A stretch of DNA of 37,235 bases from Candidatus Woesearchaeota archaeon (GTDB lineage Archaea; Nanobdellota; Nanobdellia; SCGC-AAA011-G17; JAGVZH01): the NCBI GenBank assembly GCA_018302745.1, contig JAGVZH010000014.1:1-37235 (forward strand), written 5' to 3'. This document shows, piece by piece, positions 351 through 34,245 of the stretch. Position 1 is the first letter of the stretch. Every line of letters begins with the position of its first letter. The position numbers were made by a program, and so were the translations under genes. The notes beneath the pieces are model-generated. The model worked only from the letters and a program-made list of their open reading frames with translations, was not told the origin of the DNA and searched no databases.

Positions 351-839
351 TTAGGGTGCTGGCGCACACTCCTTAAGTTCAATTTCTTCACTAATATCGC
401 CACATATAACTTCCTGCCCTTCATCTGAAAATGTCGGCCTTAATAATTCCAGTTTAGTTGCTACACTCCCTACACTTTGAGAATCAAATTCCTGTGTGTA
501 GGATTTTATTCCTAAAGCAACCAAACCCAATTCTAATTCTCTGACATCAATCTGATCATCTTCCAATCCTGTAAATCTCAAACTTACCTTATTTATTGTT
601 GCTTCACCTTTATTTTCTAATGTGAAAGTAACGCTGTTTCCCTGATAACATGCTTTTTTTATTTCAAAAGATACCAGATTACTTTGAAGACAGGCCAATT
701 GGCTTTGCGCTTTTTCCCCAGTCTCTTCTGTCAGGCTTTGGGTAAATGCCTTCCCCCATGTAAAGATTACTAAAGCCAATGCAATAGTAAATCCAATAAC
801 TAATACTGTTGCAATCAACGGGCTTATTCCTTTTTTCAT
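351..839 (-). CDS. Archaeal type IV pilin-like protein (Pilin_N / class III signal peptide)
   Basis: 162 aa. The N-terminus MKKGISPLIATVLVIGFTIALALVIF matches the archaeal pilin N-terminal domain pattern (KKG|ISPLIA...). GGAGG (plus-strand cctcc, 845-849) lies 5 nt upstream of the ATG. Four Cys in a 2+2 pattern are shared with the two upstream paralogs. Confidence 0.75.
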   Translation of the reverse strand: MKKGISPLIATVLVIGFTIALALVIFTWGKAFTQSLTEETGEKAQSQLACLQSNLVSFEIKKACYQGNSVTFTLENKGEATINKVSLRFTGLEDDQIDVRELELGLVALGIKSYTQEFDSQSVGSVATKLELLRPTFSDEGQEVICGDISEEIELKECAPAP

Positions 840-849
840 TTTATCCTCC

Positions 850-1314
850 TTAACAGCCTTGAGTTATAAAAACCTCAACAGCTTTTTCCTGGCACAAGCT
901 TATCTTGCCATTAATGCTTAATTTTGGAACTATAAATGCGCTTACTGGAACAGCCAATGTCTGTGTCTGCACATCAACACTTCCAACTTCAAGTCCTTTT
1001 ATTAACTGATTAACATCTGTAACTTCTGACTGGTCTCCTGCATCATTCTCCAGTCTTATTACAAATCCTCTGACATCATTGCCTTTTCTGTTTTCTATAA
1101 TGAAATGCACTCCAGAGCTGTCAACGCATGCTTTTTCAATTCCAAGCTCTACTGCAGTAGAGCATACAACTTCTGCTTCCACAATCTCTCCTGTTTTCCC
1201 TACCCTTTCTTCTGTGAAAGTCTGAACCCAGACAAAAATTATAACAGCTAATGCAATAGTAAACCCAATTAAAAGAACAGTAGCAATCAACGGGCTTATA
1301 CCTCTTTTTTTCAT
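850..1314 (-). CDS. Archaeal type IV pilin-like protein (paralog)
   Basis: The ORF track gives 850..1335. I prefer the internal ATG at 1314-1312 (MKKRGISPLIATVLLIGFTIALAVIIF...). It reproduces the paralog N-terminus and overlaps the upstream stop as TGATG. The MVCRRML extension has no counterpart in the paralogs. Confidence 0.75.
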   Translation of the reverse strand: MKKRGISPLIATVLLIGFTIALAVIIFVWVQTFTEERVGKTGEIVEAEVVCSTAVELGIEKACVDSSGVHFIIENRKGNDVRGFVIRLENDAGDQSEVTDVNQLIKGLEVGSVDVQTQTLAVPVSAFIVPKLSINGKISLCQEKAVEVFITQGC

Positions 1315-1784
1315 CAACATCCTCCGACAAACCATTGAGTTTCTTCCTGGCTCAACTCTGCTTTTTTATCAGCACATCCAGTTTCTTCCCTTATAGGAAC
1401 TGCCTGAAGTTTTATTATTGCTTTGTTCTCTATAGGAACAACAGCTTCTATATTATTATCAGGCAAGAGATTATTATTAAAACTTACTATTTCATTTCCT
1501 AAAGTATTATCGCTGTAAAATATTCTTACTTGAATTTTATTTATTGCCAAAAATCCTCTATTGTTTATTTTTAATTTTATATTCCTGCTTGCCTTATTGC
1601 ATTCTAATGGCTCTGCATTAATAATAATCTTATCGCAGGTAGATCCTCCTTCTACATACTCAATTAAGCTTTCTTTAGTTGTTTCTGCACTTTCTTTTAA
1701 AAAATTTCCAACAATCAAAGCCAAGCTGACTGTTAGGCCTATAATAAGAATCCATGCTATTAATGGAGAAACACCTTTCTTCAT
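1314..1784 (-). CDS. Archaeal type IV pilin-like protein (paralog)
   Basis: 156 aa. The N-terminus is MKKGVSPLIAWILIIGLTVSLALIV. It shows the same Cys pattern (C..C early, C..C at the C-terminus). It overlaps the upstream gene by ATGA (1781-1784). Confidence 0.75.
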   Translation of the reverse strand: MKKGVSPLIAWILIIGLTVSLALIVGNFLKESAETTKESLIEYVEGGSTCDKIIINAEPLECNKASRNIKLKINNRGFLAINKIQVRIFYSDNTLGNEIVSFNNNLLPDNNIEAVVPIENKAIIKLQAVPIREETGCADKKAELSQEETQWFVGGC

Positions 1785-20133: not shown

Positions 20134-20694
20134 ATGGCATTAAGCACATTAACAGTAACATTAATTGTTCTTGGGGCCATAGTTTTGTTTATCATACTCC
20201 TTTTCAATGCGCTGATAAGGCTCAAGAACCAGATAGAAAACTCATGGGCGCAGATAGATGTCCAGCTTAAGAGAAGGGCTGACCTTATCCCGAATCTTGT
20301 AAATTCCGTAAAAGGATACATGAAGCATGAAAAAGGAGTTCTTGAATCTGTGACAAAAGCAAGAACCTCTTTCCTTAATGCAGGGGCTGACATGGGCAAG
20401 AAAGCAAAGTCATCCGACATGCTCAGCAATGCACTGAAATCATTGTTTGCAGTAAGCGAGAACTACCCCAAACTGCAGGCGTCGCAGAATTTCCTACAGT
20501 TGCAGGAGGAGATTACAGGAACAGAAAACAAAATATCCTATGCAAGGCAGCATTACAATGACATGGTGATGCATTTCAATACCAAACTGCAGACATTCCC
20601 AAACAACACGATTGCAGGAATGCTTCACTTTACAAAAAAACAGATGTTTGAAGCAGAAGCTTCTGAGAGGAAAAACATAAAAGTTGAGTTCTGA
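20134..20694 (+). CDS. lemA: LemA-family protein
   Basis: 186 aa. It has an N-terminal TM helix, then NSWAQIDVQLKRRADLIPNLV...YPKLQASQNF..LQ..L...EN.I...R..YN, the classic LemA pattern. Confidence 0.85.
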   Translation: MALSTLTVTLIVLGAIVLFIILLFNALIRLKNQIENSWAQIDVQLKRRADLIPNLVNSVKGYMKHEKGVLESVTKARTSFLNAGADMGKKAKSSDMLSNALKSLFAVSENYPKLQASQNFLQLQEEITGTENKISYARQHYNDMVMHFNTKLQTFPNNTIAGMLHFTKKQMFEAEASERKNIKVEF

Positions 20695-21542
20695 TGATAA
20701 TAGCCTTTGATGAGGTTAGAAACAATAAGATTAAGTCTGTCATTCTTATTTCATTTTTTATAATTCTTATAGGTTTTTTTGGGGCTGTGCTGGGGCTTTA
20801 TTATGGTAGCATTTATTTTGGATTGATATTCTCAATCATTGCAGGAATAATCTACACATTGCTTGTCTTTAACGCCGGCTCCAATATGATTCTTTCAATG
20901 AGCGGAGCCAAGCCTGTGACCAAGCAGGAATATCCTCATTTATACCATACTGTTGAAGGTCTAGCAGTTGCTGCCGGCCTGCCAAAACCAAAATGCTACA
21001 TTATTGAGGACAGCGCATTAAATGCTTTTGCAACAGGAAAAGACCCGAAGCATGCATCAATTACAGTAACAACAGGATTATTGAGCAAGCTAAAAAGACA
21101 GGAATTGGAAGGGGTAATCGGCCATGAGATGAGCCACATAAAGAACTACGACATCCGCTTCATGATGCTTGTTACTGTGCTTATCGGTGTTGTTACCTTT
21201 ATGAGTGATTTCCTGCTGAGGTCTTTCCTCTGGGGTGGCCATGGTAGAAGAAGGGACAGCGGCTCTATCGGAATAATTTTAATTTTGATTGGGATAGTAT
21301 TGGCAATACTCTCACCGCTGATAGGATATATGATAAGAGCTGCAATCAGCAGGAAAAGGGAGTTTGCAGCAGATGCCAGCGGGGCTGTACTGACAAGATA
21401 TCCTCCTGGTTTAGCTGATGCACTCGAAAAAATAAGCGGGGATCCGGACCCATTGGTTGACAAGGCAAACAAGGCAACCGCGCATTTGTTTATCTCGACA
21501 CCCATATATTCGCAACCCACCCTCCGATTCATGAAAGAATAA
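20694..21542 (+). CDS. htpX: HtpX-type M48 zinc protease, frameshifted at the 3' end
   Basis: 282 aa in the track. It has HEMSHIKNYD (HExxH) and EFAADASGA. The canonical C-terminus FATHPPIHERIKRLRAM* is encoded in the +1 frame at 21509-21562. It overlaps lemA as TGATG. Confidence 0.8.
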   Translation: MIIAFDEVRNNKIKSVILISFFIILIGFFGAVLGLYYGSIYFGLIFSIIAGIIYTLLVFNAGSNMILSMSGAKPVTKQEYPHLYHTVEGLAVAAGLPKPKCYIIEDSALNAFATGKDPKHASITVTTGLLSKLKRQELEGVIGHEMSHIKNYDIRFMMLVTVLIGVVTFMSDFLLRSFLWGGHGRRRDSGSIGIILILIGIVLAILSPLIGYMIRAAISRKREFAADASGAVLTRYPPGLADALEKISGDPDPLVDKANKATAHLFISTPIYSQPTLRFMKE

Positions 21543-21973: not shown

Positions 21974-23367
21974 GTTTTAAGTGTGGTATTGAAATCCATC
22001 AACAAATTGAAAGCCACAAATTATTCTGCAAATGCCCTTCTCTAGTAAATGATCCTAATGAAGAAAAAATAACTATTCAGAGATATTTAAGAGCTCCGGC
22101 AGGAGAAACAGGGCATATTGATATAGCAGCATTGCATGAATTAAAAAAAGGAAAATACTTTGTTTATGAAGCAAAACCAACTTCTAGCTGCCAAGTTGAG
22201 TTAGATGAATCACCGCCAGAAGAAATAAATCATGATGCATTAGAAACATCTTTGCAGGTAGCTTTAATTTTAAATTGTGATTTAGTAGATGAAGTAATAT
22301 TTATGAGAAAAACAGTAATTGATGGCAGCAATACCTCTGGATTCCAAAGAACAGCTTTAATCGGATTAAATGGTTATGTAAATACATCAAAAGGAAAGGT
22401 AAAAGTAGAAACAGTCTGTTTAGAAGAAGAATCAGCTAAAAAAATAAATGAGGATGAAAAATCAGCAAATTATAGCTTAGACAGACTTGGTGTTCCTTTA
22501 ATAGAAATTGCAACAGATGCTTCAATAAAAGACCCGGAGCATTGCAAAGAAGTTGCTTCTTACTTAGGGATGGTTTTGAGGTCAACTGGAAAAGTTAAGA
22601 GAGGTTTAGGCACTATAAGGCAGGATGTTAATTTATCAATAAAAGGCTCTTCAAGAGTTGAATTAAAGGGTTTTCAGGATTTAAGATCAATACCAAAAGT
22701 AATTGAAAATGAAGTTAAAAGATTAACAAGATTAAAAGACCATAAGCCTGAAGTGAGAAAAGTAGAGCCGAATTTTATGTCTATATTTTTAAGACCAATG
22801 CCTGGTTCATCAAGGATGTATCCTGAAACTGATATAAAGGAGATTTCAATAACAAAAGATTTACTGGCAAAAATTTCTATTCCTGAATTAATAGATGAGA
22901 AAGCATTAAAATTAGAAAAAGAATATAATTTAAATTCTTATTTGGCGAGAGAGTTGATAAAATCTAATGTTAATTTTGATTTATACAAAACAAAGTTTGA
23001 AAAATTACTGCCTTCTTTAATAGCTTCAATACTTGTAGAAATTCCAAAGGAAATAAAAACCAGGTTTAATCTTGATTATAAATTTAAGGAATCTGATTTT
23101 GATTTTGTTTTAAGTGCATTAAATCATGGAAGAATCCCAAAAGACTCTGCTTTGGAAATATTAACAGAGATAGCAAAAGGAAAAAGACCAAATTTAGACA
23201 AATACACATCTGTTGATGAAAAAGAGCTTGAAAATTATATCAAAGAACTGGTAAAGAAAAACAAAGAACTTTCTATAAATGCATTAATGGGTATGGTAAT
23301 GAAACACTATAAAGGCTCTGTAGAAGGCAGTTTAGCTATGAAAATATTAAAAAAATATCATAAATGA
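21946..23367 (+). CDS. gatE: Glu-tRNA(Gln) amidotransferase subunit E (short form)
   Basis: 473 aa. It has LGFKCGIEIHQQIESHKLFCKCPS, GTIRQDVNLSI, RPMPGSSRMYPETD and a YqeY-like tail. It is about 140 aa shorter than the GatE proteins I know of. Confidence 0.85.
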   Translation: MEKVNYEKLGFKCGIEIHQQIESHKLFCKCPSLVNDPNEEKITIQRYLRAPAGETGHIDIAALHELKKGKYFVYEAKPTSSCQVELDESPPEEINHDALETSLQVALILNCDLVDEVIFMRKTVIDGSNTSGFQRTALIGLNGYVNTSKGKVKVETVCLEEESAKKINEDEKSANYSLDRLGVPLIEIATDASIKDPEHCKEVASYLGMVLRSTGKVKRGLGTIRQDVNLSIKGSSRVELKGFQDLRSIPKVIENEVKRLTRLKDHKPEVRKVEPNFMSIFLRPMPGSSRMYPETDIKEISITKDLLAKISIPELIDEKALKLEKEYNLNSYLARELIKSNVNFDLYKTKFEKLLPSLIASILVEIPKEIKTRFNLDYKFKESDFDFVLSALNHGRIPKDSALEILTEIAKGKRPNLDKYTSVDEKELENYIKELVKKNKELSINALMGMVMKHYKGSVEGSLAMKILKKYHK

Positions 23368-24083
23368 AAAACTTCCCCTTCAGACATTCAACATTGTCAG
23401 AAAGAAAAGAATTTTATGAAAAAGAATTTTCTGTTAGCAAAATTAAAAAATGGTTTAAGTCAAATAATCTTCCTTTGCCCCAGTTATGCGCATTAGACCC
23501 TGGAAGTGAAACCAAGATTATTCTGGATAAAAAGTTAAAAAATAACTTGCTTTACTTCTCATTTAATCAATTGCCTAGAAAGATAAAGCAGTATATTCCA
23601 GAGGATGTTTATTATGATAGAAATATTTACAAAGATTATAAAAAAATCCTAAAAACGCTCAAATTTAATAATTACATTTCTCAAGAATTGGCATTTGATG
23701 TAGATGCAGATAATATAATATGTGATCATCCTAAAAATAAAAGTGTCTGCAAAAAATGCCTGAATAAAATTTACAAAGCTGCATTAAAAATGAAAGGGGA
23801 AATTAATGATTTGGGATTTAAAAAAATAGAGATTGTTTATTCTGGAAGAGGATTCCATGTTCATGTTATGGACAAAAAAGCTTCTTTATTATCTGTAAAG
23901 GAAAGAAGTTCATTAAATAAAAAATTTAAAAAATTTCCTATTGATCCTTGGGTTTCAAGAGGATATATAAGGCTGATAAGAATGCCCTACTCTTTAAATT
24001 CGTTAGTATCAAGAAAAACAATGCCAATAAAAACAAAAAAATTTAGTTCAAAAACAGGAGTCCCTAAGTTTCTGAAGAATTAA
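23364..24083 (+). CDS. priS: Compact archaeo-eukaryotic primase, PriS-like
   Basis: 239 aa. AEP motifs are present: LAFDVDAD (DxD), SGRGFHVHV and LIRMPYSLN. There is a Cys knuckle CDHPKNKSVCKKC. It overlaps gatE by ATGA. Confidence 0.7.
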   Translation: MKNFPFRHSTLSERKEFYEKEFSVSKIKKWFKSNNLPLPQLCALDPGSETKIILDKKLKNNLLYFSFNQLPRKIKQYIPEDVYYDRNIYKDYKKILKTLKFNNYISQELAFDVDADNIICDHPKNKSVCKKCLNKIYKAALKMKGEINDLGFKKIEIVYSGRGFHVHVMDKKASLLSVKERSSLNKKFKKFPIDPWVSRGYIRLIRMPYSLNSLVSRKTMPIKTKKFSSKTGVPKFLKN

Positions 24084-24193
24084 GCTCTTCTGCTTTTCTT
24101 TCCGTAATAGCTTCTTTTTTTCTTAGAAGCGCTTCTTGAAGTTCTTGCTCTTGAAGATACTCTCTTTGAAGCTTTCTTTCTTTTTGCAGCCAT
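24080..24193 (-). CDS. Very basic 37-aa protein (possible small ribosomal or nucleic-acid-binding protein)
   Basis: My own translation is MAAKRKKASKRVSSRARTSRSASKKKRSYYGKKSRRA. Its stop shares a TTAA with the priS stop, as at two other convergent gene pairs in the window. Confidence 0.35.
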   Translation of the reverse strand: MAAKRKKASKRVSSRARTSRSASKKKRSYYGKKSRRA

Positions 24194-24258: not shown

Positions 24259-24268
24259 TTTAAATATA
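24259..24268 (+). promoter_or_regulatory. TATA-like box upstream of the acyl-lipid operon
   Basis: tttaaatata lies 21-30 nt upstream of the ATG at 24289. Confidence 0.4.
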
Positions 24269-24288
24269 AAAGAATATTAATAATAAGA

Positions 24289-26643
24289 ATGAGCAAAAAA
24301 GAAGAGTCAATTCAAAATTTAATTCTGAATTATTTAAAGAGAAATAAAAATAAGAAAGTAATAGCAATAAGAATAGGCTATAGAACATTTTATGCTACAG
24401 GAAAAAGTCTTTCAGAAAAAATAGCTAAAATTCAGGAGCTTTTTAAAAATGAAAATATCTCAAAGGGGGATAAGATAATTATTTTTGGAAAGAATTCAAT
24501 AGAATGGATATCTGTTTATTTTGCTTCAATTTTGTCAGGGACTATAATAATTCCATTGGATTTATTAACAGACCATTCTTTACTAAAAAAAATTCAGAAA
24601 CAGGTTAATGCAAAAGCCATCTTTCAGGACTCTAATTTAGTAAGATTAAAGCCTGTTAAAAAATTTTATCTTGATAATCTTGATGATAGTCTAAGATTAC
24701 TTAAAAATGAGGCAATATACTCTGAGAATATACTTGATGATGACATTTTGGAAATAATTTACACTTCTGGCTCAACAGGAGATCCAAAAGGAGTTGTCTT
24801 AACAAATAAAAATATAACCTCTGGATTAAATTCTGCTAGATCTTCAGTAAAGTTAAATTTTAAACTGAAAATTCTTAATCTTCTTCCATTAAGCCATATT
24901 CTTTCCCAGATCTATGGCTTATTTCTTTTGATGCATTCAAACAATCAGATTTATTTCATGGATTCTATAAAATCAAAAAAAATAATTTCATTTATAAGAA
25001 ATAAAAAAATTAACGGGGCTATTTTAGTTCCAGGAATTTTAAGGGCTTTAAAAAAAGATCTTGAAAATAAATCATTTATCTCAAACTTAGGACTGCAATT
25101 CAGATTTTTTGGAGTCGGAGGATCTTTTTTAGACAATGAATTAGAAAAATGGTTCAGAAGACATCTTATTTTAGTAATTCAGGGATATGGATTAACAGAA
25201 ACTTCATCTGTCCTAACTACAAATACTCTATTTTCCCAAAAAGTGGGAAGTGTTGGTAAGATAGCAAAAGATGTGGATGTTAAAATTTCAGAAGATGGAG
25301 AAATTTTAGTAAAAGGTAATAATGTAACATCCTGTTATTATAAAGATTCTGAAAAAACAAAAGATTCATTTGAAGGACAATGGTTTAAAACAGGTGATTT
25401 GGGATATTTAAAGGATAATTATATTTATCTCAAAGGGAGGAAAAAAGATATTATCATAACAGGCACAGGCCTTAATGTTTATCCTTCCGATATAGAAAAA
25501 GTTTTAAACAAATTTCCGGAAGTAAAAGAAAGCTGTGTTCTGGAAAAAAACGATAAAATACATGCTGTATTAATATTAAAGAAAAAAACTGATTTAAACA
25601 AACTGGTAAAAGGGGCAAATTCCATGCTTCTTGCACACCAAAAAATTTCATCTTATTCTTTATGGCATGAAAATAATTTTCCTAAAACAAATACTGGAAA
25701 GATAAAAAAATTCATTGTTTCCGAAGAATTGGAAAAAATAAAAGCAAGATCATATTTTTATAAAGAAGAATTGCATAAAATAATAAATAATGTTCTGAAT
25801 CCTTCCAATAAGATTAAAGAAAACTCAAAGCTTTCTGACTTAGGTATGGATTCTTTGAGAAGAATAGAGCTTATTTCTGAAATAGAAGATGAATTTGGGA
25901 TTGGATTAAATGAAGCTGATATAAACCAGTATACAAAAGTTTCTGATCTAAGAAAATTAATGGCAAAAGAAAAGTTAGAGGAAATAAAGTTCAAAAAATG
26001 GCAGTTAAATCCTTTAGTAAGAATTTTTGGAAACATATTAAGAGTAATTATTTCATATCCTTTAGTCTTTAGCTTTGCAAAAGTCTCATATGAAGGCCTT
26101 GAAAATCTTAAAGATTTAAAGTATCCGGTAATATTTGCAAGCAATCACCAAAGTGCATGGGATCCTGTTGTAATAATAAAGTCTATAAAAACTAGAACTG
26201 CGATTCCCACACATCCAATGATTTTCGGAATAGGAGTTAAAAAGCATAAATTAAAAAGAAAAATTAGGGGTTTTTTAGCATCTTTAGCCTTTAATGCCTA
26301 TCCTTTTGGAGAAAAAATAGGAACAGAAAAAAGCTTAGAGTTTACAGCAGAGATGATAGATGATAATTACAGTATTTTAATATTTCCCGAAGGCAGAAGG
26401 ACAAATGACGGAAAAATAAAGCCTTTTATGCAGGGAATAGGATATCTTGCTTTAGCCATGAACTTGCCGATAATTCCAGTAAAGATTTCGGGCTTATTTG
26501 ATATTCTTCCGATAAATAAAACAATGCCAAAAAAAGGCAAGGTTATTGTAAAGTTTGGAAAGCCAATAAATCAGGATAAATTAAAAAACATTTCTTATAT
26601 TAAAGCGACTAAATTAATTGAAAAAAAGGTTAAAGAACTATGA
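24289..26643 (+). CDS. Tri-domain fusion of acyl-AMP/CoA ligase, acyl carrier domain and PlsC-type acyltransferase
   Basis: 784 aa. Ligase motifs are TSGSTGDPKG (24763-24792), GYGLTETS, WFKTGDLG and NTGKIKK. The carrier motif is LGMDSLRRIEL, with the Ser codon at 25852-25854. Acyltransferase motifs are NHQSAWD (HX4D, 26143-26163) and FPEGRR (26383-26397). Confidence 0.85.
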   Translation: MSKKEESIQNLILNYLKRNKNKKVIAIRIGYRTFYATGKSLSEKIAKIQELFKNENISKGDKIIIFGKNSIEWISVYFASILSGTIIIPLDLLTDHSLLKKIQKQVNAKAIFQDSNLVRLKPVKKFYLDNLDDSLRLLKNEAIYSENILDDDILEIIYTSGSTGDPKGVVLTNKNITSGLNSARSSVKLNFKLKILNLLPLSHILSQIYGLFLLMHSNNQIYFMDSIKSKKIISFIRNKKINGAILVPGILRALKKDLENKSFISNLGLQFRFFGVGGSFLDNELEKWFRRHLILVIQGYGLTETSSVLTTNTLFSQKVGSVGKIAKDVDVKISEDGEILVKGNNVTSCYYKDSEKTKDSFEGQWFKTGDLGYLKDNYIYLKGRKKDIIITGTGLNVYPSDIEKVLNKFPEVKESCVLEKNDKIHAVLILKKKTDLNKLVKGANSMLLAHQKISSYSLWHENNFPKTNTGKIKKFIVSEELEKIKARSYFYKEELHKIINNVLNPSNKIKENSKLSDLGMDSLRRIELISEIEDEFGIGLNEADINQYTKVSDLRKLMAKEKLEEIKFKKWQLNPLVRIFGNILRVIISYPLVFSFAKVSYEGLENLKDLKYPVIFASNHQSAWDPVVIIKSIKTRTAIPTHPMIFGIGVKKHKLKRKIRGFLASLAFNAYPFGEKIGTEKSLEFTAEMIDDNYSILIFPEGRRTNDGKIKPFMQGIGYLALAMNLPIIPVKISGLFDILPINKTMPKKGKVIVKFGKPINQDKLKNISYIKATKLIEKKVKEL

Positions 26644-26972
26644 AAATAAGAATAGGATGCGATATAGTAAAAATCAGCAGATTTGATAATATCAAGAAGA
26701 AAACTCTGGAAAGAATATTCCACAAAAATGAAATTAAAAAATCAAAAATGAATCCAGAAACTCTTGCAGGGATTTTTGCTGCAAAGGAAAGCTGCAAAAA
26801 AGTCTTTAATGATATTAATTGGCATGATATAGAAATTAAGAAGAAAAGAAATGGCAAACCTTTGCTTATCTTAGGAAAAGACAAAGGCGTAGCAAGTTCT
26901 GACTTAAGCATTAGTCATGATGGAGATTATGCTATAGCCAGTGTGGTTTTTTTAATTCGTGAGGTTCAATAA
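26640..26972 (+). CDS. acpS: Holo-ACP synthase (AcpS-type 4'-phosphopantetheinyl transferase)
   Basis: 110 aa. It has IGCDIVKISRF, FAAKESCKK and LSISHDGDYAIASV, matching the AcpS pattern (G.D.v...R...., .A.KEA..KA, .S.SH....A.A). It overlaps the upstream gene by ATGA. Confidence 0.8.
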   Translation: MKIRIGCDIVKISRFDNIKKKTLERIFHKNEIKKSKMNPETLAGIFAAKESCKKVFNDINWHDIEIKKKRNGKPLLILGKDKGVASSDLSISHDGDYAIASVVFLIREVQ

Positions 26973-27809
26973 TGGCTACTTCAATATGGATTATTTTAAG
27001 AATAATTCGGTTGATACTGTGTTTAATTTTTTTTAAGTATCCATCCTCCCAAGCATTCCGATAAAGATATTCCCTCAAATTATGGCTTAAAATATGATAA
27101 TATATCTTTTATGACATCTGACGGAATAAAGATAAAGGCTTGGTTGATTACCTCTAAGAAGGCCAGTGGAACTGTAATAATCGGTCATGGATATCCTTTT
27201 AATAAAGGGAACATACTGCATGTTGCAAAATTTCTTTATCCTGATTATAATCTCGTTTTTTATGATCACAGGTATTTTGGTGAAAGCTCTGGATTTATAA
27301 CTACTGTTGGCTTTAAGGAAGTAAAAGATATAGAGGCCACTATAAAATTTGTAAAGGAAAGATTTGGTAAAAAAGAGCCTATCGCACTATATGGATTTTC
27401 TCTTAGTGCATCAGCAATGATCATGTCTAAGGCAGATGTCAATGCAATTATAGCTGATTCATCATATGCTGATTTGAGTAGAATGATAGAGCACACATAT
27501 TCAATATTTGGTTTTTTAAAATATCCTTTCGTTAAAACTACGGAACTTTATTCTATAATATTTTTAAATATCCATCCTAAAGAAGTTTCTCCAGCTTTGG
27601 CTATTAAAGACACTAATGTACCTTTGTTTGTTATTCATGGAGAAAAAGATAGCCAAATTCCGGTTGAAAATGCATATGCATTAAAAGAAAGCAATCCTAA
27701 TATAGAACTTTGGATAGCGAATGGTAGTGATCACGGTCAAGCTTATGCCCTTTACAAAGATGAATATACTAGTAGAATTAAATCATTTTTGGAAAAACAT
27801 ATGAAATGA
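26972..27809 (+). CDS. Membrane-anchored alpha/beta hydrolase (esterase/lipase-like), split by a frameshift in a T8 run
   Basis: Track ORF 27111..27809 has the nucleophile elbow YGFSLSA, plus HGEKDS and GSDHG (Ser-Asp-His). That frame stays open upstream to 27027 without an ATG. A second frame from the ATG at 26972 (TAATG overlap with acpS) encodes the TM helix MATSIWIILRIIRLILCLIFF. The two frames meet at tttttttt, 27027-27034. Confidence 0.7.
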
Positions 27810-29029
27810 AATCGTTAAAAAAACAAATATTTGGCTGGAGCATGTATGATTTTGCCAATACCATCTTCTCTGCCTTGTTTATTACTGTTTATTTTCCTTT
27901 GTTTGTAGTTCTTAATGGAGGCACTTCTTTTTATGTAGGACTAACAATGTCTATATCTATGTTGTTGGCAGGATTGCTAGTTCCTTTTTTAGGGGCAATT
28001 GCGGATATTACTCAAAGAAAGAAGCTTTTGCTGTTTATTTTTACATTATTATCCTGCATATTTACACTATTTACCGGACTTTTTGACTTAACTTTGATTT
28101 TAATATTAGGCTTACTTGCAAATTTCTTTTATCATGCAAGTTTGGATGTTTATGACTCTTTGCTTGTTGATATCTCAAGTAAAAAAAATATTGGGTGGAT
28201 ATCTGGAATAGGAACTGCTGTTGGTTATTTAGGGACTATATTAAGCGTTGCAATAGCTTATATTGTCGGATTAATTTATGGTTTTGAAACTACGCAGGGA
28301 ATAAGAATAATATTTTTATTAGTAGCAATATTATTTTTTAGTATTTCTCTAATTACCTTTTTTTATGTTAAAATAACTTCAAAGGTTAAAATCAAAAAAG
28401 AGCATTTTTCTGAAGCTTTTAAAAGAGTAATTTTTACAATTAAGAATATCAAACAATTTAAGCATATAGGGATATTTTTATTAGCTTCATTTTTATATAT
28501 GGATGCGGCTAATACCTCAATAATCTTTTTATTCTTATATGGCAGGGACCAATTAGGCTTAAGCCTAGTTCAGTTTCTTCCCCTTTATGTCTTGATGGCT
28601 ATAGCTGCTTTTATTGGTTCTTTGATTTTTGGAAAAATAACAGATAAAGTTGGCCATAAGAAAACATTAACTATGGTTTTATTTTTATGGGTTTTAGTTA
28701 TTTTGAATTTATATATAAAAACAACATATACAACATTCATAATTACAGGCATTTTCGGAGGAGCTTTATTGGGAGGCATATGGACAATTACAAGGCCTAT
28801 CCTGGTTGAATTATCGCCAAAGGCTAAAATAGCAGAATTATTTGGATATCAGGGATTAACTGAAAAATTTTCAGGCGTAATAGGACCGGCATTATTTGGC
28901 TATGTAGCTACTTTCATTGATTTTAGACAGGCTCTTTTGGTTGTCATTGGCTTATTCTTAGCAGGAGCATTAGTTCTTTCATTTGTTAAGAAAAATAAGG
29001 AAAAGTATTTAAATAAAGATTTAGGATAA
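27806..29029 (+). CDS. MFS permease, UMF1/Atg22-like
   Basis: 407 aa with multiple TM helices. The N-terminal GWSMYDFANTIFSALF matches the W.(L/M)YD.AN(S/T) signature of that MFS family. It overlaps the hydrolase gene by ATGA. Confidence 0.65.
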   Translation: MKSLKKQIFGWSMYDFANTIFSALFITVYFPLFVVLNGGTSFYVGLTMSISMLLAGLLVPFLGAIADITQRKKLLLFIFTLLSCIFTLFTGLFDLTLILILGLLANFFYHASLDVYDSLLVDISSKKNIGWISGIGTAVGYLGTILSVAIAYIVGLIYGFETTQGIRIIFLLVAILFFSISLITFFYVKITSKVKIKKEHFSEAFKRVIFTIKNIKQFKHIGIFLLASFLYMDAANTSIIFLFLYGRDQLGLSLVQFLPLYVLMAIAAFIGSLIFGKITDKVGHKKTLTMVLFLWVLVILNLYIKTTYTTFIITGIFGGALLGGIWTITRPILVELSPKAKIAELFGYQGLTEKFSGVIGPALFGYVATFIDFRQALLVVIGLFLAGALVLSFVKKNKEKYLNKDLG

Positions 29030-29061: not shown

Positions 29062-29295
29062 ATGAAAAACCTTAATATTTTTTTGTATACTGCGATTGTT
29101 GTTGTTCTTTTAATTGCAGCTGTTTTAATACAGGAAAAAAGAATGGAATTGGAAGCAAAGGAAATATGTCAAAAAAATAACCTGAGCTATCAAAGCAAAA
29201 TAAAAGAAAACTCTTTTCAATTAAAAGCTGCTTTATGCAAATCAGGATGCAATAATGATTTCTGCAAGGTTAGCTTTTACCAGATTAAACCATAA
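29062..29295 (+). CDS. Small N-terminally anchored Cys-containing protein
   Basis: 77 aa with one TM helix and 4 Cys in the exposed part. It overlaps the convergent UbiB gene by 11 nt. Confidence 0.4.
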   Translation: MKNLNIFLYTAIVVVLLIAAVLIQEKRMELEAKEICQKNNLSYQSKIKENSFQLKAALCKSGCNNDFCKVSFYQIKP

Positions 29296-31591: not shown

Positions 31592-32953
31592 ATGTTAAGG
31601 ACTCATAATTGCGGTGAATTAACTAAAAAAGACAAAGGAAAAGAAGTAATTTTATCAGGTTGGCTGCATTCTTCAAGAGTTCAAAAAAAATTCAGTTTTA
31701 TTGATTTAAGAGATAGATATGGAGTGACACAATTATTCTTAGATGAAAAATTTAATGACCAAATTTCAAAATTAGGAAAAGAATCTGTTATACAGGCTAA
31801 AGGTATTGTTCAGGTAAAACCTGCTCCAAATCCAAAATTAAAAACTGGAGAAATAGAAGTTAAGGTTTCTTCTATAGAAGTTCTGAATGAATCAGATGAG
31901 TTGCCTTTGGATTTGTCTGGAGAGATTGAATCAACAGAAGAAACAAGATTGAAGTACAGATATCTGGATTTAAGAACAGAAAAGATGAAGAATAATATAA
32001 TAACAAGGTATAAAATTACAAAATCAATAAGGGATTCTCTTCACAAACAGGATTTTTTAGAGATAGAAACTCCTATGCTGGCAAAGTCAACTCCAGAAGG
32101 TGCAAGGGATTATTTAGTTCCTTCGAGAGTTAATCCAAAAAAATTCTTTGCCCTTCCACAGTCGCCCCAGATATTTAAGCAGTTATTGATGGTTTCCGGA
32201 TTTGACAGATACTTTCAGATAGTAAGATGCTTCAGGGATGAGGATTTAAGAGCTGACAGGCAGCCAGAATTCACTCAATTGGACATGGAGATGAGTTTTG
32301 TTGGAGAAGAAGATGTTTATTTTGCAATAGAACAGTTAATGAAAGATATCTGGAAAGATGTTTTGAACATTAATATAAAAATCCCATTCCAAAGAATGAC
32401 TTATGAAGAAGCTATAAAAAAACATAAAACTGACAAGCCAGATTTGAGAAAAAACAAAGATGAATATGCATTTTTGTGGGTTACAGATTTTCCATTGTTG
32501 GATTTTAATGAAGAAGAAAAGAGATATGTTGCAATGCACCATCCATTTACAAGCCCAAAATTAGAAGATGTTAAATTGCTTGACAAAAATCCTGAAAAGG
32601 CAAGGGCAAGAGCCTATGATTTAGTATTAAATGGAGAGGAAATTGGCGGCGGTTCGATAAGGATCCATAAAAAAGAATTGCAGGAAAAAATATTCAATGC
32701 TATTAAGATGACTAAAAAAGAGGCTGAAGATAAGTTCGGGTTTTTGATGAATGCTTTTAAATATGGAGCCCCTCCTCATGGAGGCATTGCATTAGGCTTG
32801 GATAGGATAGCAGCAATAGTGACTGGAAACAGCAATATAAGGGAAGTTATAGCTTTTCCAAAAAACCAGGATGCAAAGGACTTGATGATGGGTTCTCCAT
32901 CTGAAGTTGATAAAAGTCAATTAAAGGAATTAGGAATAAAGTTTGAAAAATGA
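31592..32953 (+). CDS. aspS: Aspartyl-tRNA synthetase, bacterial-type sequence without the GAD insertion
   Basis: 453 aa. It has MLRTHNCGEL, FFALPQSPQIFKQLLMVSGFDRYFQIVRCFRDEDLRADRQPEFTQLDMEMSF, HHPFTSPK and GGIALGLDR. Confidence 0.88.
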   Translation: MLRTHNCGELTKKDKGKEVILSGWLHSSRVQKKFSFIDLRDRYGVTQLFLDEKFNDQISKLGKESVIQAKGIVQVKPAPNPKLKTGEIEVKVSSIEVLNESDELPLDLSGEIESTEETRLKYRYLDLRTEKMKNNIITRYKITKSIRDSLHKQDFLEIETPMLAKSTPEGARDYLVPSRVNPKKFFALPQSPQIFKQLLMVSGFDRYFQIVRCFRDEDLRADRQPEFTQLDMEMSFVGEEDVYFAIEQLMKDIWKDVLNINIKIPFQRMTYEEAIKKHKTDKPDLRKNKDEYAFLWVTDFPLLDFNEEEKRYVAMHHPFTSPKLEDVKLLDKNPEKARARAYDLVLNGEEIGGGSIRIHKKELQEKIFNAIKMTKKEAEDKFGFLMNAFKYGAPPHGGIALGLDRIAAIVTGNSNIREVIAFPKNQDAKDLMMGSPSEVDKSQLKELGIKFEK

Positions 32954-34245
32954 AATTTATATCAATACAGGAAGCATTGGATAAAAAAGAAGGAAAGGTT
33001 TCTCTAAGAGGATGGGTTTACAGGGAAAGAAAGCAGAAAGAGATGGCTTTCATAGTCATGAGAGATTCCTCAAACATAATTCAGTGCGTAGTGAAGGAAG
33101 ACAAAGTTAGCAAAAAAGAATGGGAAGACGCAAACAAGATTCTTATTGAATCATCATTAGAAATAGAAGGAACTTTAAAAGAGGATAAGAGAGCCCCAAC
33201 AGGCTATGAATTACAAGTTTCTAAATTGAATGTTATTCATTTTGCAGAAAAATTTCCAATCTCAAAAGACCATTCTCCGGAATTTTTGCTTGATGTAAGG
33301 CATCTGTCATTAAGATCAAGAAAATTAACCAATGTTTTAAAAGTGAGATCAACAGTTTTTAAAGCAATACATGATTACTTCAGGTCATTTGGATATTATG
33401 AGTATCATTCTCCCTGCTTCACTCCAAATGCAGCAGAAGGAGGCTCAACTCTGTTCAAAGTGGATTATTTTGGCAAGCCGATTTATCTTACTCAAACCTG
33501 GCAGTTATATGCAGAAGCAGGAATTTTTGCTTTGGAAAAAATATATACAATAGCGCCTTCATTCAGGTCAGAAAAATCAAAAACATCAAGGCATCTAACA
33601 GAATATTGGCATGCCGAAGTTGAGACTGCATGGCAGCATTTTCCTGAACTATTAGATCTGGCAGAAGGATTAATAAAATATATAGTAAAAACAGTACTAA
33701 AAGAAAACAAAAAAGAATTAGATATATTAGGAAGGGATACAAAAAAACTAGAGCCTATAGTAAAGGAAAAATTTCCAAGAATAACTTACAAAGAAGCTTT
33801 GAAAATCCTTGAGCAAAAGGCGAAAATAAAAATTCCATACGGAAAGGACTTAAGGACAGTAGAAGAAGATGCTTTGTCAAAACTTTATAATACTCCTGTT
33901 TTTGTAACGCATTATCCAAAGATAATAAAGGCTTTTTACATGAAAGAGGATGATAAAGATAAAGGTGCAGTTTTAGGCTCAGACTTAATAGCGACAGAAG
34001 GTTATGGGGAAATTATTGGGGCAAGTGAAAGAGAAACAGATATTAAAGAGCTGGAAAAGAAACTAAAAGCTCAGGGTGAGGACCCAAAAAAGTATGGATG
34101 GTATTTGGATACAAGAAGGTATGGAAGTGTTCCTCATGCCGGATTTGGATTAGGTGTAGAAAGAGTGATTGCATGGGTTTGCGGCTTGGATAATATTAAG
34201 GATGCTATTCCATTCCCAAGAACAATGTTAAGGTATCAGCCTTAA
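32950..34245 (+). CDS. asnS: Asparaginyl-tRNA synthetase
   Basis: 431 aa. It has YLTQTWQLYAE, FRSEKSKTSRHLTEYWHAEVE and WYLDTRRYGSVPHAGFGLGVER. It overlaps aspS by ATGA. Confidence 0.85.
   Translation: MKFISIQEALDKKEGKVSLRGWVYRERKQKEMAFIVMRDSSNIIQCVVKEDKVSKKEWEDANKILIESSLEIEGTLKEDKRAPTGYELQVSKLNVIHFAEKFPISKDHSPEFLLDVRHLSLRSRKLTNVLKVRSTVFKAIHDYFRSFGYYEYHSPCFTPNAAEGGSTLFKVDYFGKPIYLTQTWQLYAEAGIFALEKIYTIAPSFRSEKSKTSRHLTEYWHAEVETAWQHFPELLDLAEGLIKYIVKTVLKENKKELDILGRDTKKLEPIVKEKFPRITYKEALKILEQKAKIKIPYGKDLRTVEEDALSKLYNTPVFVTHYPKIIKAFYMKEDDKDKGAVLGSDLIATEGYGEIIGASERETDIKELEKKLKAQGEDPKKYGWYLDTRRYGSVPHAGFGLGVERVIAWVCGLDNIKDAIPFPRTMLRYQP

What the first reader, a model, noticed from the sequence alone, without database searches (positions are those of the whole stretch)
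24259..29029. Four translationally coupled genes form a bacterial-style acyl-lipid activation and re-acylation module inside an archaeal backbone
Seen in sequence: one TATA-like box (24259-24268) precedes four + strand genes whose stops and starts overlap (ATGA 26640-26643, TAATG 26970-26974, ATGA 27806-27809). The genes are:
- a 784-aa fusion of an adenylate-forming acyl ligase, a carrier-protein domain and a PlsC-type acyltransferase;
- an AcpS-type phosphopantetheinyl transferase;
- a membrane-anchored Ser-Asp-His alpha/beta hydrolase;
- a multi-TM UMF1/Atg22-like MFS permease.

Established knowledge: archaea build ether isoprenoid lipids and generally lack ACP and AcpS. In E. coli an MFS flippase (LplT) and the bifunctional acyltransferase/acyl-ACP synthetase Aas are co-transcribed and re-acylate imported lysophospholipids.

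Inference: this cassette is a self-sufficient analogue of that system. It has its own carrier domain and activating PPTase, plus an esterase that could generate lyso-lipid or free fatty acid. It could let a lipid-auxotrophic episymbiont import and re-tailor host or environmental ester lipids. The domain order (ligase-ACP-PlsC) is the reverse of Aas and the permease is not LplT-like, so this looks like an independent assembly. The flanks (gatE and priS upstream; UbiB, translin and aspS downstream) share the same low-GC composition, so it is not an obvious contaminant.
Basis: partly seen in the sequence, partly recalled or inferred. Interest (0 to 1): 0.85.

Follow-up and report, generated by a model that had tools for sequence, protein, structure and literature searches.

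The report
Fatty-acid salvage cassette in tiny archaea
A small archaeon of the DPANN group carries a compact gene set that is conserved in related archaea and in similarly tiny CPR bacteria, and that probably activates scavenged fatty acids and attaches them to lipids, which could explain how cells unable to make lipids maintain a membrane.

Summary
The four genes and all proposed domains are real. Gene 1 (24289-26643) is a fatty-acid adenylating domain fused to a carrier domain and a PlsC-type acyltransferase, with every catalytic motif conserved. Genes 2 and 4 are an AcpS-type PPTase and a UMF1/Atg22-type MFS permease.

One correction is needed. In this window the hydrolase gene is broken: 39 nt are replaced by 16 nt at 27008-27024, leaving a 30-codon stub plus a 232-aa ORF. 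Four other assemblies of the same population carry an intact 286-aa membrane-anchored esterase.

The cassette is not unique to this genome. The fusion+AcpS pair lies together in 7 of 7 divergent DPANN loci examined. The same MFS lies within 5 kb in 6 of 7 and the esterase in 4 of 7, with varying gene order and unrelated flanks. Three of four CPR loci have AcpS beside the fusion, against 2 of 73 loci from other phyla (3 TM6-type loci: 0).

The fusion architecture matches the described bacterial ElbD-like type lacking the reductase domain, and ElbD hits in Woesearchaeia were reported in 2025.

Best reading: an ATP-driven salvage and re-acylation module that works like E. coli LplT/Aas but is not a member of that family. 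The acceptor lipid and the MFS substrate remain inferred.

The parts
24259..24266 (+). TATA-like box (TTTAAATA), 30 nt upstream of the fusion gene's ATG. The spacing fits an archaeal promoter with a leaderless or near-leaderless transcript.
   Evidence: Sequence. The pattern occurs 31 times in the window against 19.5 expected, so it is plausible but not individually significant.
24289..26643 (+). Gene 1: a 784-aa tri-domain enzyme.
- Fatty-acid adenylating domain: aa 32 to about 480, nt 24382-25728.
- Carrier (ACP-like) domain: aa 494-554, nt 25768-25950. The phosphopantetheine site is Ser522 (DSL motif), nt 25852-25854.
- Hydrophobic helix: aa 575-594.
- PlsC-type acyltransferase: aa 599-734, nt 26083-26490. 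It has the HX4D motif (H620-D625) and FPEG at 699-702.
   Evidence: - Pfam.
- Catalytic residues are invariant in 42 and 59 homologues.
- PDB sequence matches: FadD13 at 3e-41 and T. maritima PlsC at 3e-11.
- AlphaFold2 model: pLDDT 87.7, pTM 0.83.
- Foldseek top hit is FadD13, followed by adenylation-carrier didomains.
26640..26972 (+). Gene 2: a 110-aa AcpS-type 4'-phosphopantetheinyl transferase. Its start overlaps the stop of gene 1 (ATGA).
   Evidence: PF01648 E 3e-11. TIGR00516 (acpS) scores 63.1 bits against a cut-off of 59.8. It is adjacent to the fusion gene in 7 of 7 DPANN loci and adjacent or within 1 kb in 3 of 4 CPR loci.
26972..27809 (+). Gene 3: a membrane-anchored Ser-Asp-His alpha/beta-hydrolase (esterase), disrupted in this window.
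- Stub ORF 26972-27064 (30 aa, TM-like).
- Lesion at 27008-27024.
- Catalytic-domain ORF 27111-27809 (232 aa) in another frame.
- The intact form in sister assemblies is 286 aa.
   Evidence: - ORFs and lesion.
- Closest solved structure is 5g59, named 'esterase', E 8e-26.
- Conserved YGFSLSA, HGEKD and DHG motifs, plus an N-terminal hydrophobic helix.
- The intact protein is on 35 contigs.
27806..29029 (+). Gene 4: a 407-aa MFS permease of the UMF1/Atg22-like family. Its start overlaps the stop of gene 3 (ATGA).
   Evidence: - MFS_1 2e-39 and ATG22 5e-32.
- AlphaFold2 model pLDDT 91, all-helical MFS fold.
- 60-76% identical in many Woesearchaeota and Nanoarchaeota.
- 42% identical to the MFS beside the AcpS-fusion pair in a CPR Liptonbacteria genome.
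- Not LplT-like.
29062..29295 (+). Small 77-aa ORF with one TM helix and a Cys-rich tail, directly downstream. Whether it belongs to the cassette is uncertain.
   Evidence: Called as a gene in all four sister assemblies. It has no Pfam or NCBIfam hit. No tblastn hit at E <= 1e-3 in the 80 bacterial loci; the other DPANN cassette loci were not searched.

Best explanation
The cassette is a self-contained module that activates fatty acids and transfers them to lipids. It is carried by DPANN archaea (Woesearchaeota/Pacearchaeota-type 'Nanoarchaeota'), and its fusion-AcpS core is also found in CPR bacteria, with the MFS alongside in one of the four CPR loci examined.

Steps supported by sequence:
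1. AcpS converts the internal carrier domain of gene 1 (Ser522) to its holo form, using CoA.
2. The FadD13-like adenylating domain uses ATP to turn a free fatty acid into acyl-AMP and loads it as a thioester on the carrier domain.
3. The PlsC-type domain has HX4D and FPEGxR motifs. It is preceded by a hydrophobic helix like the membrane anchor of T. maritima PlsC. It transfers the acyl chain to a hydroxyl group of a membrane lipid acceptor.

Steps inferred from conserved gene neighbourhood and from analogy with E. coli LplT/Aas:
4. The UMF1-type MFS delivers the substrate across the membrane, most likely by flipping a lysolipid and possibly by importing a fatty acid.
5. The membrane-anchored Pf2001-like esterase releases fatty acids or lysolipids from foreign (host or environmental) ester lipids.

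The net effect is ATP-dependent salvage and re-tailoring of ester lipids without a fatty-acid synthase or a free ACP pool. In this particular window sequence the esterase gene carries a frameshifting lesion. The lesion is either an assembly error or a minority variant.
For: - All domains are found, and the catalytic residues are invariant across 42 DPANN and bacterial homologues and, in a separate alignment, 59 DPANN-clade homologues.
- The nearest solved structures are a fatty-acyl-CoA synthetase (FadD13) and a lysophosphatidate acyltransferase (PlsC).
- The adenylating and carrier activities of the same architecture (ElbD) have been shown in vitro (PMC9131029).
- AcpS is adjacent to the fusion in 7 of 7 distinct DPANN loci. 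The UMF1 MFS is within 5 kb in 6 of 7 and the esterase in 4 of 7. There are four different gene orders and the flanks are unrelated.
- In CPR bacteria AcpS is adjacent or within 1 kb in 3 of 4 loci, and the MFS is also present in one.
- Among 73 loci of other phyla (mostly bacteria with large genomes), AcpS is adjacent in 2 and the MFS in 1. In the 3 TM6-type loci among the 80 scanned, neither is adjacent.
- Exact contig-length coincidences between the independent homologue lists indicate that the genes share a contig. There are 16 for fusion/MFS, 14 for fusion/esterase and 23 for MFS/esterase, against roughly 1 expected by chance (my rough estimate).
- The second conserved acyltransferase motif (motif II) lacks the Arg of PlsC and resembles Aas, which acylates lysophospholipids.
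- The biological setting fits. CPR cells have fatty-acid lipids and abundant lysolipids but no known pathway for making them (PMC7242380).
Against: - No experiment bears on the acceptor, on the MFS substrate or on the direction of transport.
- UMF1/Atg22 transporters have no known lipid substrate. Yeast Atg22 is described as an amino-acid effluxer (my own knowledge), and no paper on a prokaryotic UMF1 function was found.
- The fold search of the MFS model does not single out lipid transporters. Its top hit is a homologue of Rv1410. From my own knowledge Rv1410 is linked to lipid transport, but SV2A, VMAT and sugar transporters score almost the same.
- The esterase is absent from 3 of 7 DPANN cassettes and is broken in this window, so it is dispensable.
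- The rest of the genome could not be inspected, so a FAS II system, a free ACP or PlsX/PlsY might exist. Some DPANN carry FabG, FabI and FabZ (PMC10936187).
- Whether these archaea contain ester lipids at all is unknown.
Confidence: 0.55

Rival explanations
1. De novo or hybrid lipid assembly rather than lysolipid repair. The acyltransferase domain would acylate glycerol phosphate or an archaeal mono-alkyl intermediate (for example GGGP or a scavenged lyso-archaeol) with salvaged fatty acids. This would give ester or mixed ether/ester lipids. The MFS would import the fatty acid or the glycerol-phosphate backbone.
For: - The same chemistry and domains apply as in the best explanation.
- A 2026 EMBO Rep paper is titled 'Bacterial lipid synthesizing enzymes PlsY and PlsC utilize both stereo-forms of glycerol-phosphate' (listed).
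- Related loci have lipid-linked neighbours. A diacylglycerol-kinase-type ORF lies next to the CPR Uhrbacteria copy. Lgt and DedA lie near the L090 copy.
Against: - The family lacks the motif-II Arg that accompanies phosphate-monoester acceptors in PlsC.
- The cassette has only one acyltransferase.
- No headgroup or CDP-activation genes lie in the window.
Confidence: 0.17
2. An ElbD-type role in alkyl-ether lipid biosynthesis, as proposed for Myxococcus ElbD and as suggested for the ElbD hits in Black Sea Woesearchaeia.
For: - The core architecture is the same as ElbD: acyl-CoA-synthetase-like domain, ACP, then AGPAT (PMC9131029).
- ElbD hits in Woesearchaeia MAGs were interpreted in this way (PMC11868695).
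Against: - There is no reductase (FAR/NAD_binding_4) domain in the protein.
- No elbB-, elbC- or elbE-like neighbours lie in the window or the DPANN loci.
- Most non-myxobacterial homologues also lack the reductase, and their link to ether lipids is unproven. Pontiella carries a homologue but has no ether lipids.
Confidence: 0.08
3. Only the fusion and AcpS act together, and they acylate a non-membrane acceptor such as a small molecule, a glycolipid or a protein. The MFS and the esterase would be neighbours with unrelated functions, such as export or general esterase activity.
For: - The MFS family has no known lipid substrate.
- The esterase is variably present.
- Operons in compact genomes often mix functions, for example the gatE-priS overlap.
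Against: - The MFS-fusion-AcpS linkage persists through rearrangement in DPANN loci, and the same three genes lie together in one CPR locus. There are 16 to 23 same-contig coincidences.
- Characterised PF01553 enzymes act on glycerolipid-type acceptors (established knowledge of the family).
Confidence: 0.15
4. Artefact: a bacterial fragment mis-joined or mis-binned into an archaeal contig.
For: Every cassette gene family has bacterial relatives. The closest bacterial relatives of the fusion are from CPR and TM6.
Against: - 23 contigs carry the identical fusion protein, and the four assemblies shown in full have the same junctions and the same archaeal neighbours as the window.
- GC content is the same across the region.
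- Six other divergent DPANN-type loci carry the cassette in unrelated contexts, two of them with diagnostic archaeal neighbours such as exosome and RNA-polymerase Rpb2/Rpb5 genes.
Confidence: 0.02

Closest known systems
E. coli Aas-LplT (lplT-aas operon; 2-acyl-GPE acyltransferase/acyl-ACP synthetase plus lysophospholipid flippase)
   Same: - An MFS gene sits next to an enzyme that combines a fatty-acid adenylating domain with a PF01553 acyltransferase.
- The chemistry is ATP-dependent re-acylation through an acyl-thioester on a carrier.
- The acyltransferase motifs I, III and IV are shared. Motif II lacks the PlsC Arg in both.
   Different: - The domain order is reversed.
- Aas has no carrier domain and uses free ACP.
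- There is no AcpS or esterase in the E. coli operon.
- The MFS belongs to a different family (UMF1/Atg22 against LplT; BLASTP E 0.03).
- Identity is only 22% in the adenylating domain.
Myxococcus xanthus ElbD and the 'ElbD-like homologues lacking the FAR domain' of other bacterial phyla
   Same: - The core order is the same: acyl-CoA-synthetase-like domain, ACP, then AGPAT-like acyltransferase in one polypeptide.
- Adenylation and carrier loading were shown in vitro for ElbD (PMC9131029).
- The window protein's full-length bacterial relatives (25-37% identity) have this FAR-less architecture.
   Different: - There is no N-terminal fatty-acyl reductase domain and no elb operon partners.
- AcpS, MFS and esterase neighbours are not described for ElbD.
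- ElbD is linked to ether lipids. For the FAR-less homologues no function is known.
Long 'acyl-[ACP]--phospholipid O-acyltransferase' proteins (NCBIfam PRK06814 and PRK08633, profiles of about 1140 aa)
   Same: The window protein's adenylating domain matches the C-terminal part of these profiles. From my own knowledge, these proteins fuse an LplT-like MFS to Aas. If so, transporter, acyltransferase and ligase form a recurrent functional triad.
   Different: The scores are far below the cut-offs (141 against 1349 bits). The order is different, there is no carrier domain, and the MFS family is different.
Chlamydia trachomatis AasC (CT776) and lysophospholipid acyltransferase CT775
   Same: An obligate symbiont scavenges host fatty acids through an acyl-ACP synthetase and uses a lysophospholipid acyltransferase to remodel its membrane lipids (PMC5693948, listed).
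   Different: The enzymes are separate, and a free ACP and a full FAS II system are present in Chlamydia. The setting is bacterial.
PDB 5g59 esterase (from memory: Pyrococcus furiosus Pf2001 esterase/lipase)
   Same: Gene 3 aligns over aa 29-285 at E 8e-26. Pf2001 hydrolyses medium-chain acyl esters and shows lipase-like interfacial activation. It is studied as a delta-60 N-terminal truncation (PMC2967836).
   Different: Equating 5g59 with Pf2001 rests on my memory. The substrate of the DPANN enzyme is untested, and the window copy is frameshifted.

Membership tests
ElbD-like ligase-ACP-acyltransferase fusion | AMP-binding, PP-binding and PF01553 acyltransferase domains in one polypeptide, in that order | tested here: met
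   Pfam: aa 32-351, 494-554 and 599-734. The same three domains are found in 100+ homologues.
ElbD-like ligase-ACP-acyltransferase fusion | N-terminal fatty-acyl reductase (FAR-like) domain, as in M. xanthus ElbD itself | tested here: not met
   No reductase or NAD-binding family is among the Pfam hits, and the protein starts directly with the ligase domain. The literature says most non-myxobacterial homologues also lack it.
ElbD-like ligase-ACP-acyltransferase fusion | Direct sequence homology to M. xanthus ElbD, and elbB/elbC/elbE neighbours | not tested
   The ElbD sequence could not be obtained with these tools. No epimerase or HAD neighbours lie in the window cassette.
Aas (bifunctional acyltransferase/acyl-ACP synthetase) | N-terminal PF01553 acyltransferase followed by a C-terminal AMP-binding domain, with no carrier domain | tested here: not met
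   E. coli Aas has the acyltransferase at aa 15-137 and AMP-binding at 233-568, with no PP-binding domain. The window protein has the reverse order plus a carrier domain.
Aas (bifunctional acyltransferase/acyl-ACP synthetase) | Significant sequence similarity in both catalytic domains | tested here: met
   BLASTP: AMP-binding domain 22% over 326 aa, E 6e-21. Acyltransferase motifs III and IV 34% over 47 aa, E 5e-7. This is superfamily-level similarity only.
LplT lysophospholipid transporter | Sequence membership of the LplT branch of the MFS | tested here: not met
   BLASTP against E. coli LplT gives a best E of 0.03 over 21 aa. No LplT family appears among the NCBIfam hits. LplT has no ATG22 Pfam hit.
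UMF1/Atg22-like MFS | Match to PF11700 above its gathering score, and an MFS fold | tested here: met
   ATG22 scores 111.7 bits against a cut-off of 24.1. AlphaFold2 model pLDDT 91, all-helical. JGI names its homologues 'UMF1 family MFS transporter'.
PlsC (1-acyl-sn-glycerol-3-phosphate acyltransferase) | HX4D (motif I) and FPEGxR (motif III) | tested here: met
   H620, D625, P700 and E701 are invariant. The domain aligns to T. maritima PlsC (5kym) at E 3e-11.
PlsC (1-acyl-sn-glycerol-3-phosphate acyltransferase) | Motif II with a conserved Arg (E. coli LLIDRNNR), in a stand-alone protein of about 250 aa | tested here: not met
   The family has LFFNAYPF(G) at that position, and Aas has SFIDFVPLD. 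The domain is the C-terminal third of a 784-aa protein. The alignment in this region contains gaps, so this is a weak test.
AcpS-type holo-ACP synthase | Small (about 110-130 aa) single-domain PPTase that passes the curated acpS model | tested here: met
   110 aa. TIGR00516 scores 63.1 bits against a cut-off of 59.8, and TIGR00556 scores 67 against 45.35.
Membrane-anchored Ser-Asp-His esterase (5g59-like) | Intact ORF with an N-terminal anchor and a conserved nucleophile elbow, Asp and His | tested here: inconclusive
   The motifs YGFSLSA, HGEKD and DHG are conserved in four DPANN copies, and a TM helix is present in the sister assemblies. In this window the ORF is split by the 27008-27024 lesion. 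The triad assignment rests on motifs only.

The most novel reading that the evidence does not exclude
Woesearchaeota/Pacearchaeota-type DPANN archaea, and CPR bacteria with the same cassette, maintain part or all of their membrane with bacterial-type fatty-acyl ester lipids. They would make these by ATP-dependent re-acylation of lysolipids or fatty acids stripped from bacterial hosts. The fusion-AcpS-UMF1 set, with or without the esterase, would be a portable lipid-salvage module exchanged between the two domains of ultra-small symbionts. That would place living archaea on the bacterial side of the 'lipid divide' and would assign a first function to prokaryotic UMF1 transporters as lysolipid flippases.
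Probability: 0.3. Interest if true: 0.85.

Novelty: new variant of a known kind. Interest (0 to 1): 0.62.

Why it matters
How CPR bacteria and DPANN archaea obtain and maintain membranes without lipid biosynthesis is an open question. Published surveys state that no ACP-dependent enzymes were found in CPR genomes (PMC7242380), and they only list 'ElbD hits' in Woesearchaeia (PMC11868695).

This analysis defines a small, conserved gene set that brings its own carrier domain and its own PPTase. It is specific to these ultra-small lineages. It makes the salvage hypothesis directly testable with three or four recombinant proteins. It also suggests that the whole cassette has been shared between the two domains, and it offers a candidate function for the uncharacterised prokaryotic UMF1 transporters.

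Tried and rejected
It returned 80 loci, almost all bacterial (one is labelled Methanosarcinales) and none DPANN. These served only as a synteny control.
- The metagenome-contig scan with a DPANN-only alignment also used generic AMP-binding motifs. It returned mostly unrelated acyl-CoA ligases and was of no use. DPANN synteny therefore rests on 7 loci from the look-up of encoding contigs plus the contig-length coincidences.
- The Foldseek search with the MFS model gave all MFS classes E-values within about 50-fold of each other. It does not discriminate a lipid substrate.
- The Foldseek search with the fusion model found only adenylation or adenylation-carrier structures. No solved three-domain relative exists.
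- Pfam on ORFs flanking four bacterial homologues was largely empty, because my ORF picks in high-GC DNA were poor. It could not show whether the bacterial copies sit in elb-like clusters.
- Deep nodes of the neighbour-joining tree are weak (DPANN+P0062 53%, DPANN+CPR/TM6 32% of 60 bootstraps). I therefore do not claim a specific donor lineage. No maximum-likelihood software was available.
- The M. xanthus ElbD sequence could not be retrieved, so homology to ElbD is inferred from architecture and literature.
- Membrane topology of the esterase is ambiguous under the positive-inside rule, so it is not assigned.
- The sigma-70 promoter and terminator scan was at background level, as expected for an archaeon.

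Full report
**1. What is in the sequence**

The region holds four + strand ORFs:
- 24289-26643 (784 aa)
- 26640-26972 (110 aa)
- 27111-27809 (232 aa)
- 27806-29029 (407 aa)

The overlaps ATGA at 26640-26643, TAATG at 26970-26974 and ATGA at 27806-27809 are present. TTTAAATA lies at 24259-24266, 30 nt before the first ATG. That spacing would suit an archaeal TATA box with a leaderless mRNA. However, the motif occurs 31 times in the window (19.5 expected).

Four-nucleotide overlaps are frequent throughout this compact genome. The unrelated gatE and priS genes overlap in the same way at 23364-23367. Overlap by itself therefore says little about function.

**2. Correction to the observation**

The ATG at 26972 opens only a 30-codon ORF (MATSIWIILRIIRLILCLIFFKYPSSQAFR*). 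The hydrolase domain is in another frame.

The exact 784-aa protein is encoded on 23 contigs that were read. Four of those assemblies, 99.6-99.8% identical to the window, have an intact 286-aa gene that starts at the TAATG overlap and begins with a strongly hydrophobic helix. The window has 39 nt replaced by 16 nt at 27008-27024. The intact protein is on record from 35 contigs.

A second short deletion (25 nt at 21501) truncates the M48 peptidase gene in the window. The 'membrane-anchored hydrolase' is therefore true of the population but not of this sequence as given. Only read mapping can decide whether this is an assembly error or a minority variant.

**3. Domain assignments hold**

Pfam results:
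- AMP-binding, E 1e-50
- PP-binding, E 7e-11
- PF01553 acyltransferase, E 4e-18
- ACPS, E 3e-11
- several alpha/beta-hydrolase families, E about 1e-7
- MFS_1, E 2e-39
- ATG22, E 5e-32

AcpS passes NCBI's curated acpS model. No curated NCBIfam model reaches its cut-off for the fusion protein.

Two alignments, one of 42 DPANN and bacterial homologues and one of 59 DPANN-clade homologues, conserve the following residues:
- the adenylation motifs: TSGTxxxPKG at 159-168, YGxTE at 300-304, TGD at 368-370, R384 and K471
- the carrier serine S522 (DSL motif)
- the acyltransferase residues H620, P700 and E701, which are invariant in both alignments. D625 is invariant in the 42-sequence alignment and at least 90% conserved in the 59-sequence one.

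By sequence, the nearest solved structures are M. tuberculosis fatty-acyl-CoA synthetase FadD13 (3e-41) and T. maritima PlsC (3e-11). An AlphaFold2 model is confident (pLDDT 87.7, pTM 0.83). Foldseek finds FadD13 and adenylation-carrier didomains, but no solved three-domain relative.

A hydrophobic helix (aa 575-594) precedes the acyltransferase core. From my own knowledge it resembles the membrane anchor of PlsC.

The esterase aligns over nearly its full length with PDB 5g59, named 'esterase' (8e-26). From memory this is the P. furiosus Pf2001 esterase/lipase, which hydrolyses medium-chain acyl esters (PMC2967836).

**4. The backbone is archaeal and the junctions are real**

Neighbouring genes include GatD/GatE, PriS, FtsZ, ATP-dependent DNA ligase, RLI/ABCE1, deoxyhypusine synthase, TrmB, translin, UbiB and archaeal pilin-like proteins. 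GC content is uniform across the region. The four independent assemblies shown in full have the same neighbours. Contamination is effectively excluded.

**5. Comparative evidence**

This is the main new result.

The fusion protein has DPANN homologues at 40-60% identity, named Woesearchaeota, Pacearchaeota or 'Nanoarchaeota' by their sources. Bacterial proteins with the same three domains follow at 25-37% identity. The nearest are from TM6/Babeliales and CPR; many more come from Acidobacteriota, Chloroflexota and others.

I examined seven distinct DPANN loci: the window and L085-L090.
- AcpS is adjacent in 7 of 7.
- The UMF1 MFS lies within 5 kb in 6 of 7.
- The esterase is present in 4 of 7.
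- Four different gene orders occur: fusion-AcpS-esterase-MFS; fusion-AcpS-MFS; MFS-AcpS-fusion; and MFS-esterase-x-fusion-AcpS.
- The flanks are entirely different in each case.

In CPR bacteria:
- Liptonbacteria has the MFS, AcpS and the fusion together.
- Uhrbacteria has AcpS beside the fusion.
- Beckwithbacteria has AcpS about 1 kb downstream of the fusion.
- A Saccharibacteria locus has neither.

The CPR Liptonbacteria proteins are 33% (fusion), 42% (AcpS) and 42% (MFS) identical to the window's. That is as close as a divergent DPANN cassette (40%, 44% and 42%).

The controls differ sharply. Among the 80 GTDB loci scanned, 73 are neither CPR nor TM6. In those, profile searches find an adjacent AcpS in two and the MFS in one. 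Three TM6-type loci have neither.

The three independent homologue lists share exact 'longest contig' lengths. There are 16 for fusion/MFS, 14 for fusion/esterase and 23 for MFS/esterase, some on contigs of only 3.6-9 kb. I estimate about one such match by chance, so co-location extends to many more genomes.

A neighbour-joining tree groups the DPANN sequences next to the CPR and TM6 sequences, inside the bacterial diversity. Deep nodes are weak (53% and 32%). I claim bacterial ancestry of the family and cross-domain sharing, but not a specific donor.

**6.

I fetched E. coli lplT-aas for direct comparison.
- Aas has the reverse domain order and no carrier domain.
- Similarity to Aas is at superfamily level: 22% in the ligase domain, and 34% over 47 aa around acyltransferase motifs III and IV.
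- The window's MFS shows no specific similarity to LplT (E 0.03).
- In acyltransferase motif II, the family (LFFNAYPF) and Aas (SFIDFVPLD) both lack the Arg of E. coli PlsC (LLIDRNNR). This is a weak hint that the acceptor is not a phosphate monoester.

The cassette therefore works like LplT/Aas in outline but is not a member of that family.

**7. What is already known**

- ElbD of Myxococcus has a reductase domain followed by ligase, ACP and AGPAT. Its ligase and carrier activities are shown in vitro, and ElbD-like proteins without the reductase are noted in other phyla (PMC9131029).
- ElbD hits in Black Sea Woesearchaeia MAGs were reported in 2025 and read as possible modification of host bacterial lipids (PMC11868695).
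- PlsC homologues in DPANN were treated as transfers from Bacteria (PMC6431249).
- Some DPANN carry FabG, FabI, FabZ and cyclopropane-fatty-acid synthase genes (PMC10936187).
- For CPR, fatty-acid lipids and enriched lysolipids were measured, and the authors state that no ACP-producing or ACP-requiring enzymes were identified (PMC7242380).
- In nine full-text searches I found no description of the fusion-AcpS-UMF1-esterase cassette, nor of any function for prokaryotic UMF1 transporters.

**8. Mechanism and confidence**

Steps shown by sequence:
- a dedicated PPTase next to a protein with its own carrier serine
- a fatty-acid-type adenylating domain
- an intact PlsC-type acyltransferase with a membrane-association helix

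Steps inferred:
- the acceptor is a lysoglycerolipid
- the MFS supplies it by flipping or import
- the esterase generates substrates from foreign ester lipids

I give 0.55 to the salvage and re-acylation model as a whole, and about 0.75 to the narrower claim that fatty acids are activated on the internal carrier and transferred to a lipid acceptor.

Rival explanations:
- de novo or hybrid lipid assembly (0.17)
- the fusion and AcpS act on another acceptor, with the neighbours unrelated (0.15)
- an ElbD-type ether-lipid role (0.08)
- artefact (0.02)

**9. Verdict**

The analogy is sound and is now backed by synteny. The fusion itself is a known bacterial architecture rather than an independent invention, and its presence in Woesearchaeia is published.

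What appears new is the conserved, self-sufficient cassette and its restriction to the ultra-small DPANN and CPR lineages. I class it as a new variant of a known kind, with interest 0.62.

Noticed in passing
window 21501 (M48 peptidase gene, 20694-21542): The window lacks 25 nt that are present in the sister assembly L001. This truncates the LemA-adjacent M48 peptidase to 282 aa, against 297 aa in L001. Together with the esterase lesion, this makes two short frameshifting deletions in 22 kb that is otherwise 99.75% identical.
   Followed up: partly
window 24080-24193 (- strand): A 37-aa extremely basic ORF (MAAKRKKASKRVSSRARTSRSASKKKRSYYGKKSRRA) lies between priS and the fusion gene. It is called as a gene in two of the four sister assemblies. 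It would share the 95-nt divergent promoter region with the cassette.
   Followed up: no
window 351-1784 (- strand); also 1781-2299: Three tandem paralogues of about 160 aa have archaeal class-III (type IV pilin-like) signal peptides (MKKGISPLIATVLVIGFTIALA...). A fourth related ORF follows. None has a Pfam hit.
   Followed up: partly
window 29062-29295: A 77-aa ORF with one TM helix and a Cys-rich tail lies directly after the MFS gene. It overlaps the 3' end of the convergent UbiB gene by 11 nt. It has no family hit. It was not found in the 80 bacterial loci; the other DPANN loci were not searched.
   Followed up: partly
L090 10925-13901: In a locus whose fusion protein groups with the Pacearchaeota-type sequences in the tree, a prolipoprotein diacylglyceryl transferase homologue (Lgt), a DedA/VTT protein and a glycosyltransferase lie 2.5-5.5 kb downstream of the AcpS-fusion pair. 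From my own knowledge, Lgt needs a diacylglycerol lipid donor. The taxonomy of this contig was not verified.
   Followed up: no
L050 8477-9403 and L175 7523-8771: Two CPR copies have lipid-linked or kinase neighbours. In Uhrbacteria a diacylglycerol-kinase-type ORF sits convergent to the fusion gene. In Beckwithbacteria the order is fusion, orf112, APH-family kinase, AcpS. That locus also has LemA-M48 and Gat amidotransferase genes nearby, as the window does.
   Followed up: no
P0281 (esterase homologue): A 66%-identical homologue of the DPANN esterase is recorded on a 4.54-Mb contig. That is far too large for a DPANN genome. It is either a transfer into a large genome or a chimeric record.
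   Followed up: no
window 31592-34245: Two adjacent class-II aminoacyl-tRNA synthetase paralogues (453 and 431 aa) overlap by 4 nt. Both have tRNA_anti-codon and tRNA-synt_2 domains.
   Followed up: no
L042 (6.2-kb contig labelled Methanosarcinales MAG) and L079 (Spirochaetia chromosome): These are the only two loci outside CPR among the 80 scanned that have AcpS directly upstream of the fusion gene. The Methanosarcinales label rests on binning of a short contig.
   Followed up: no
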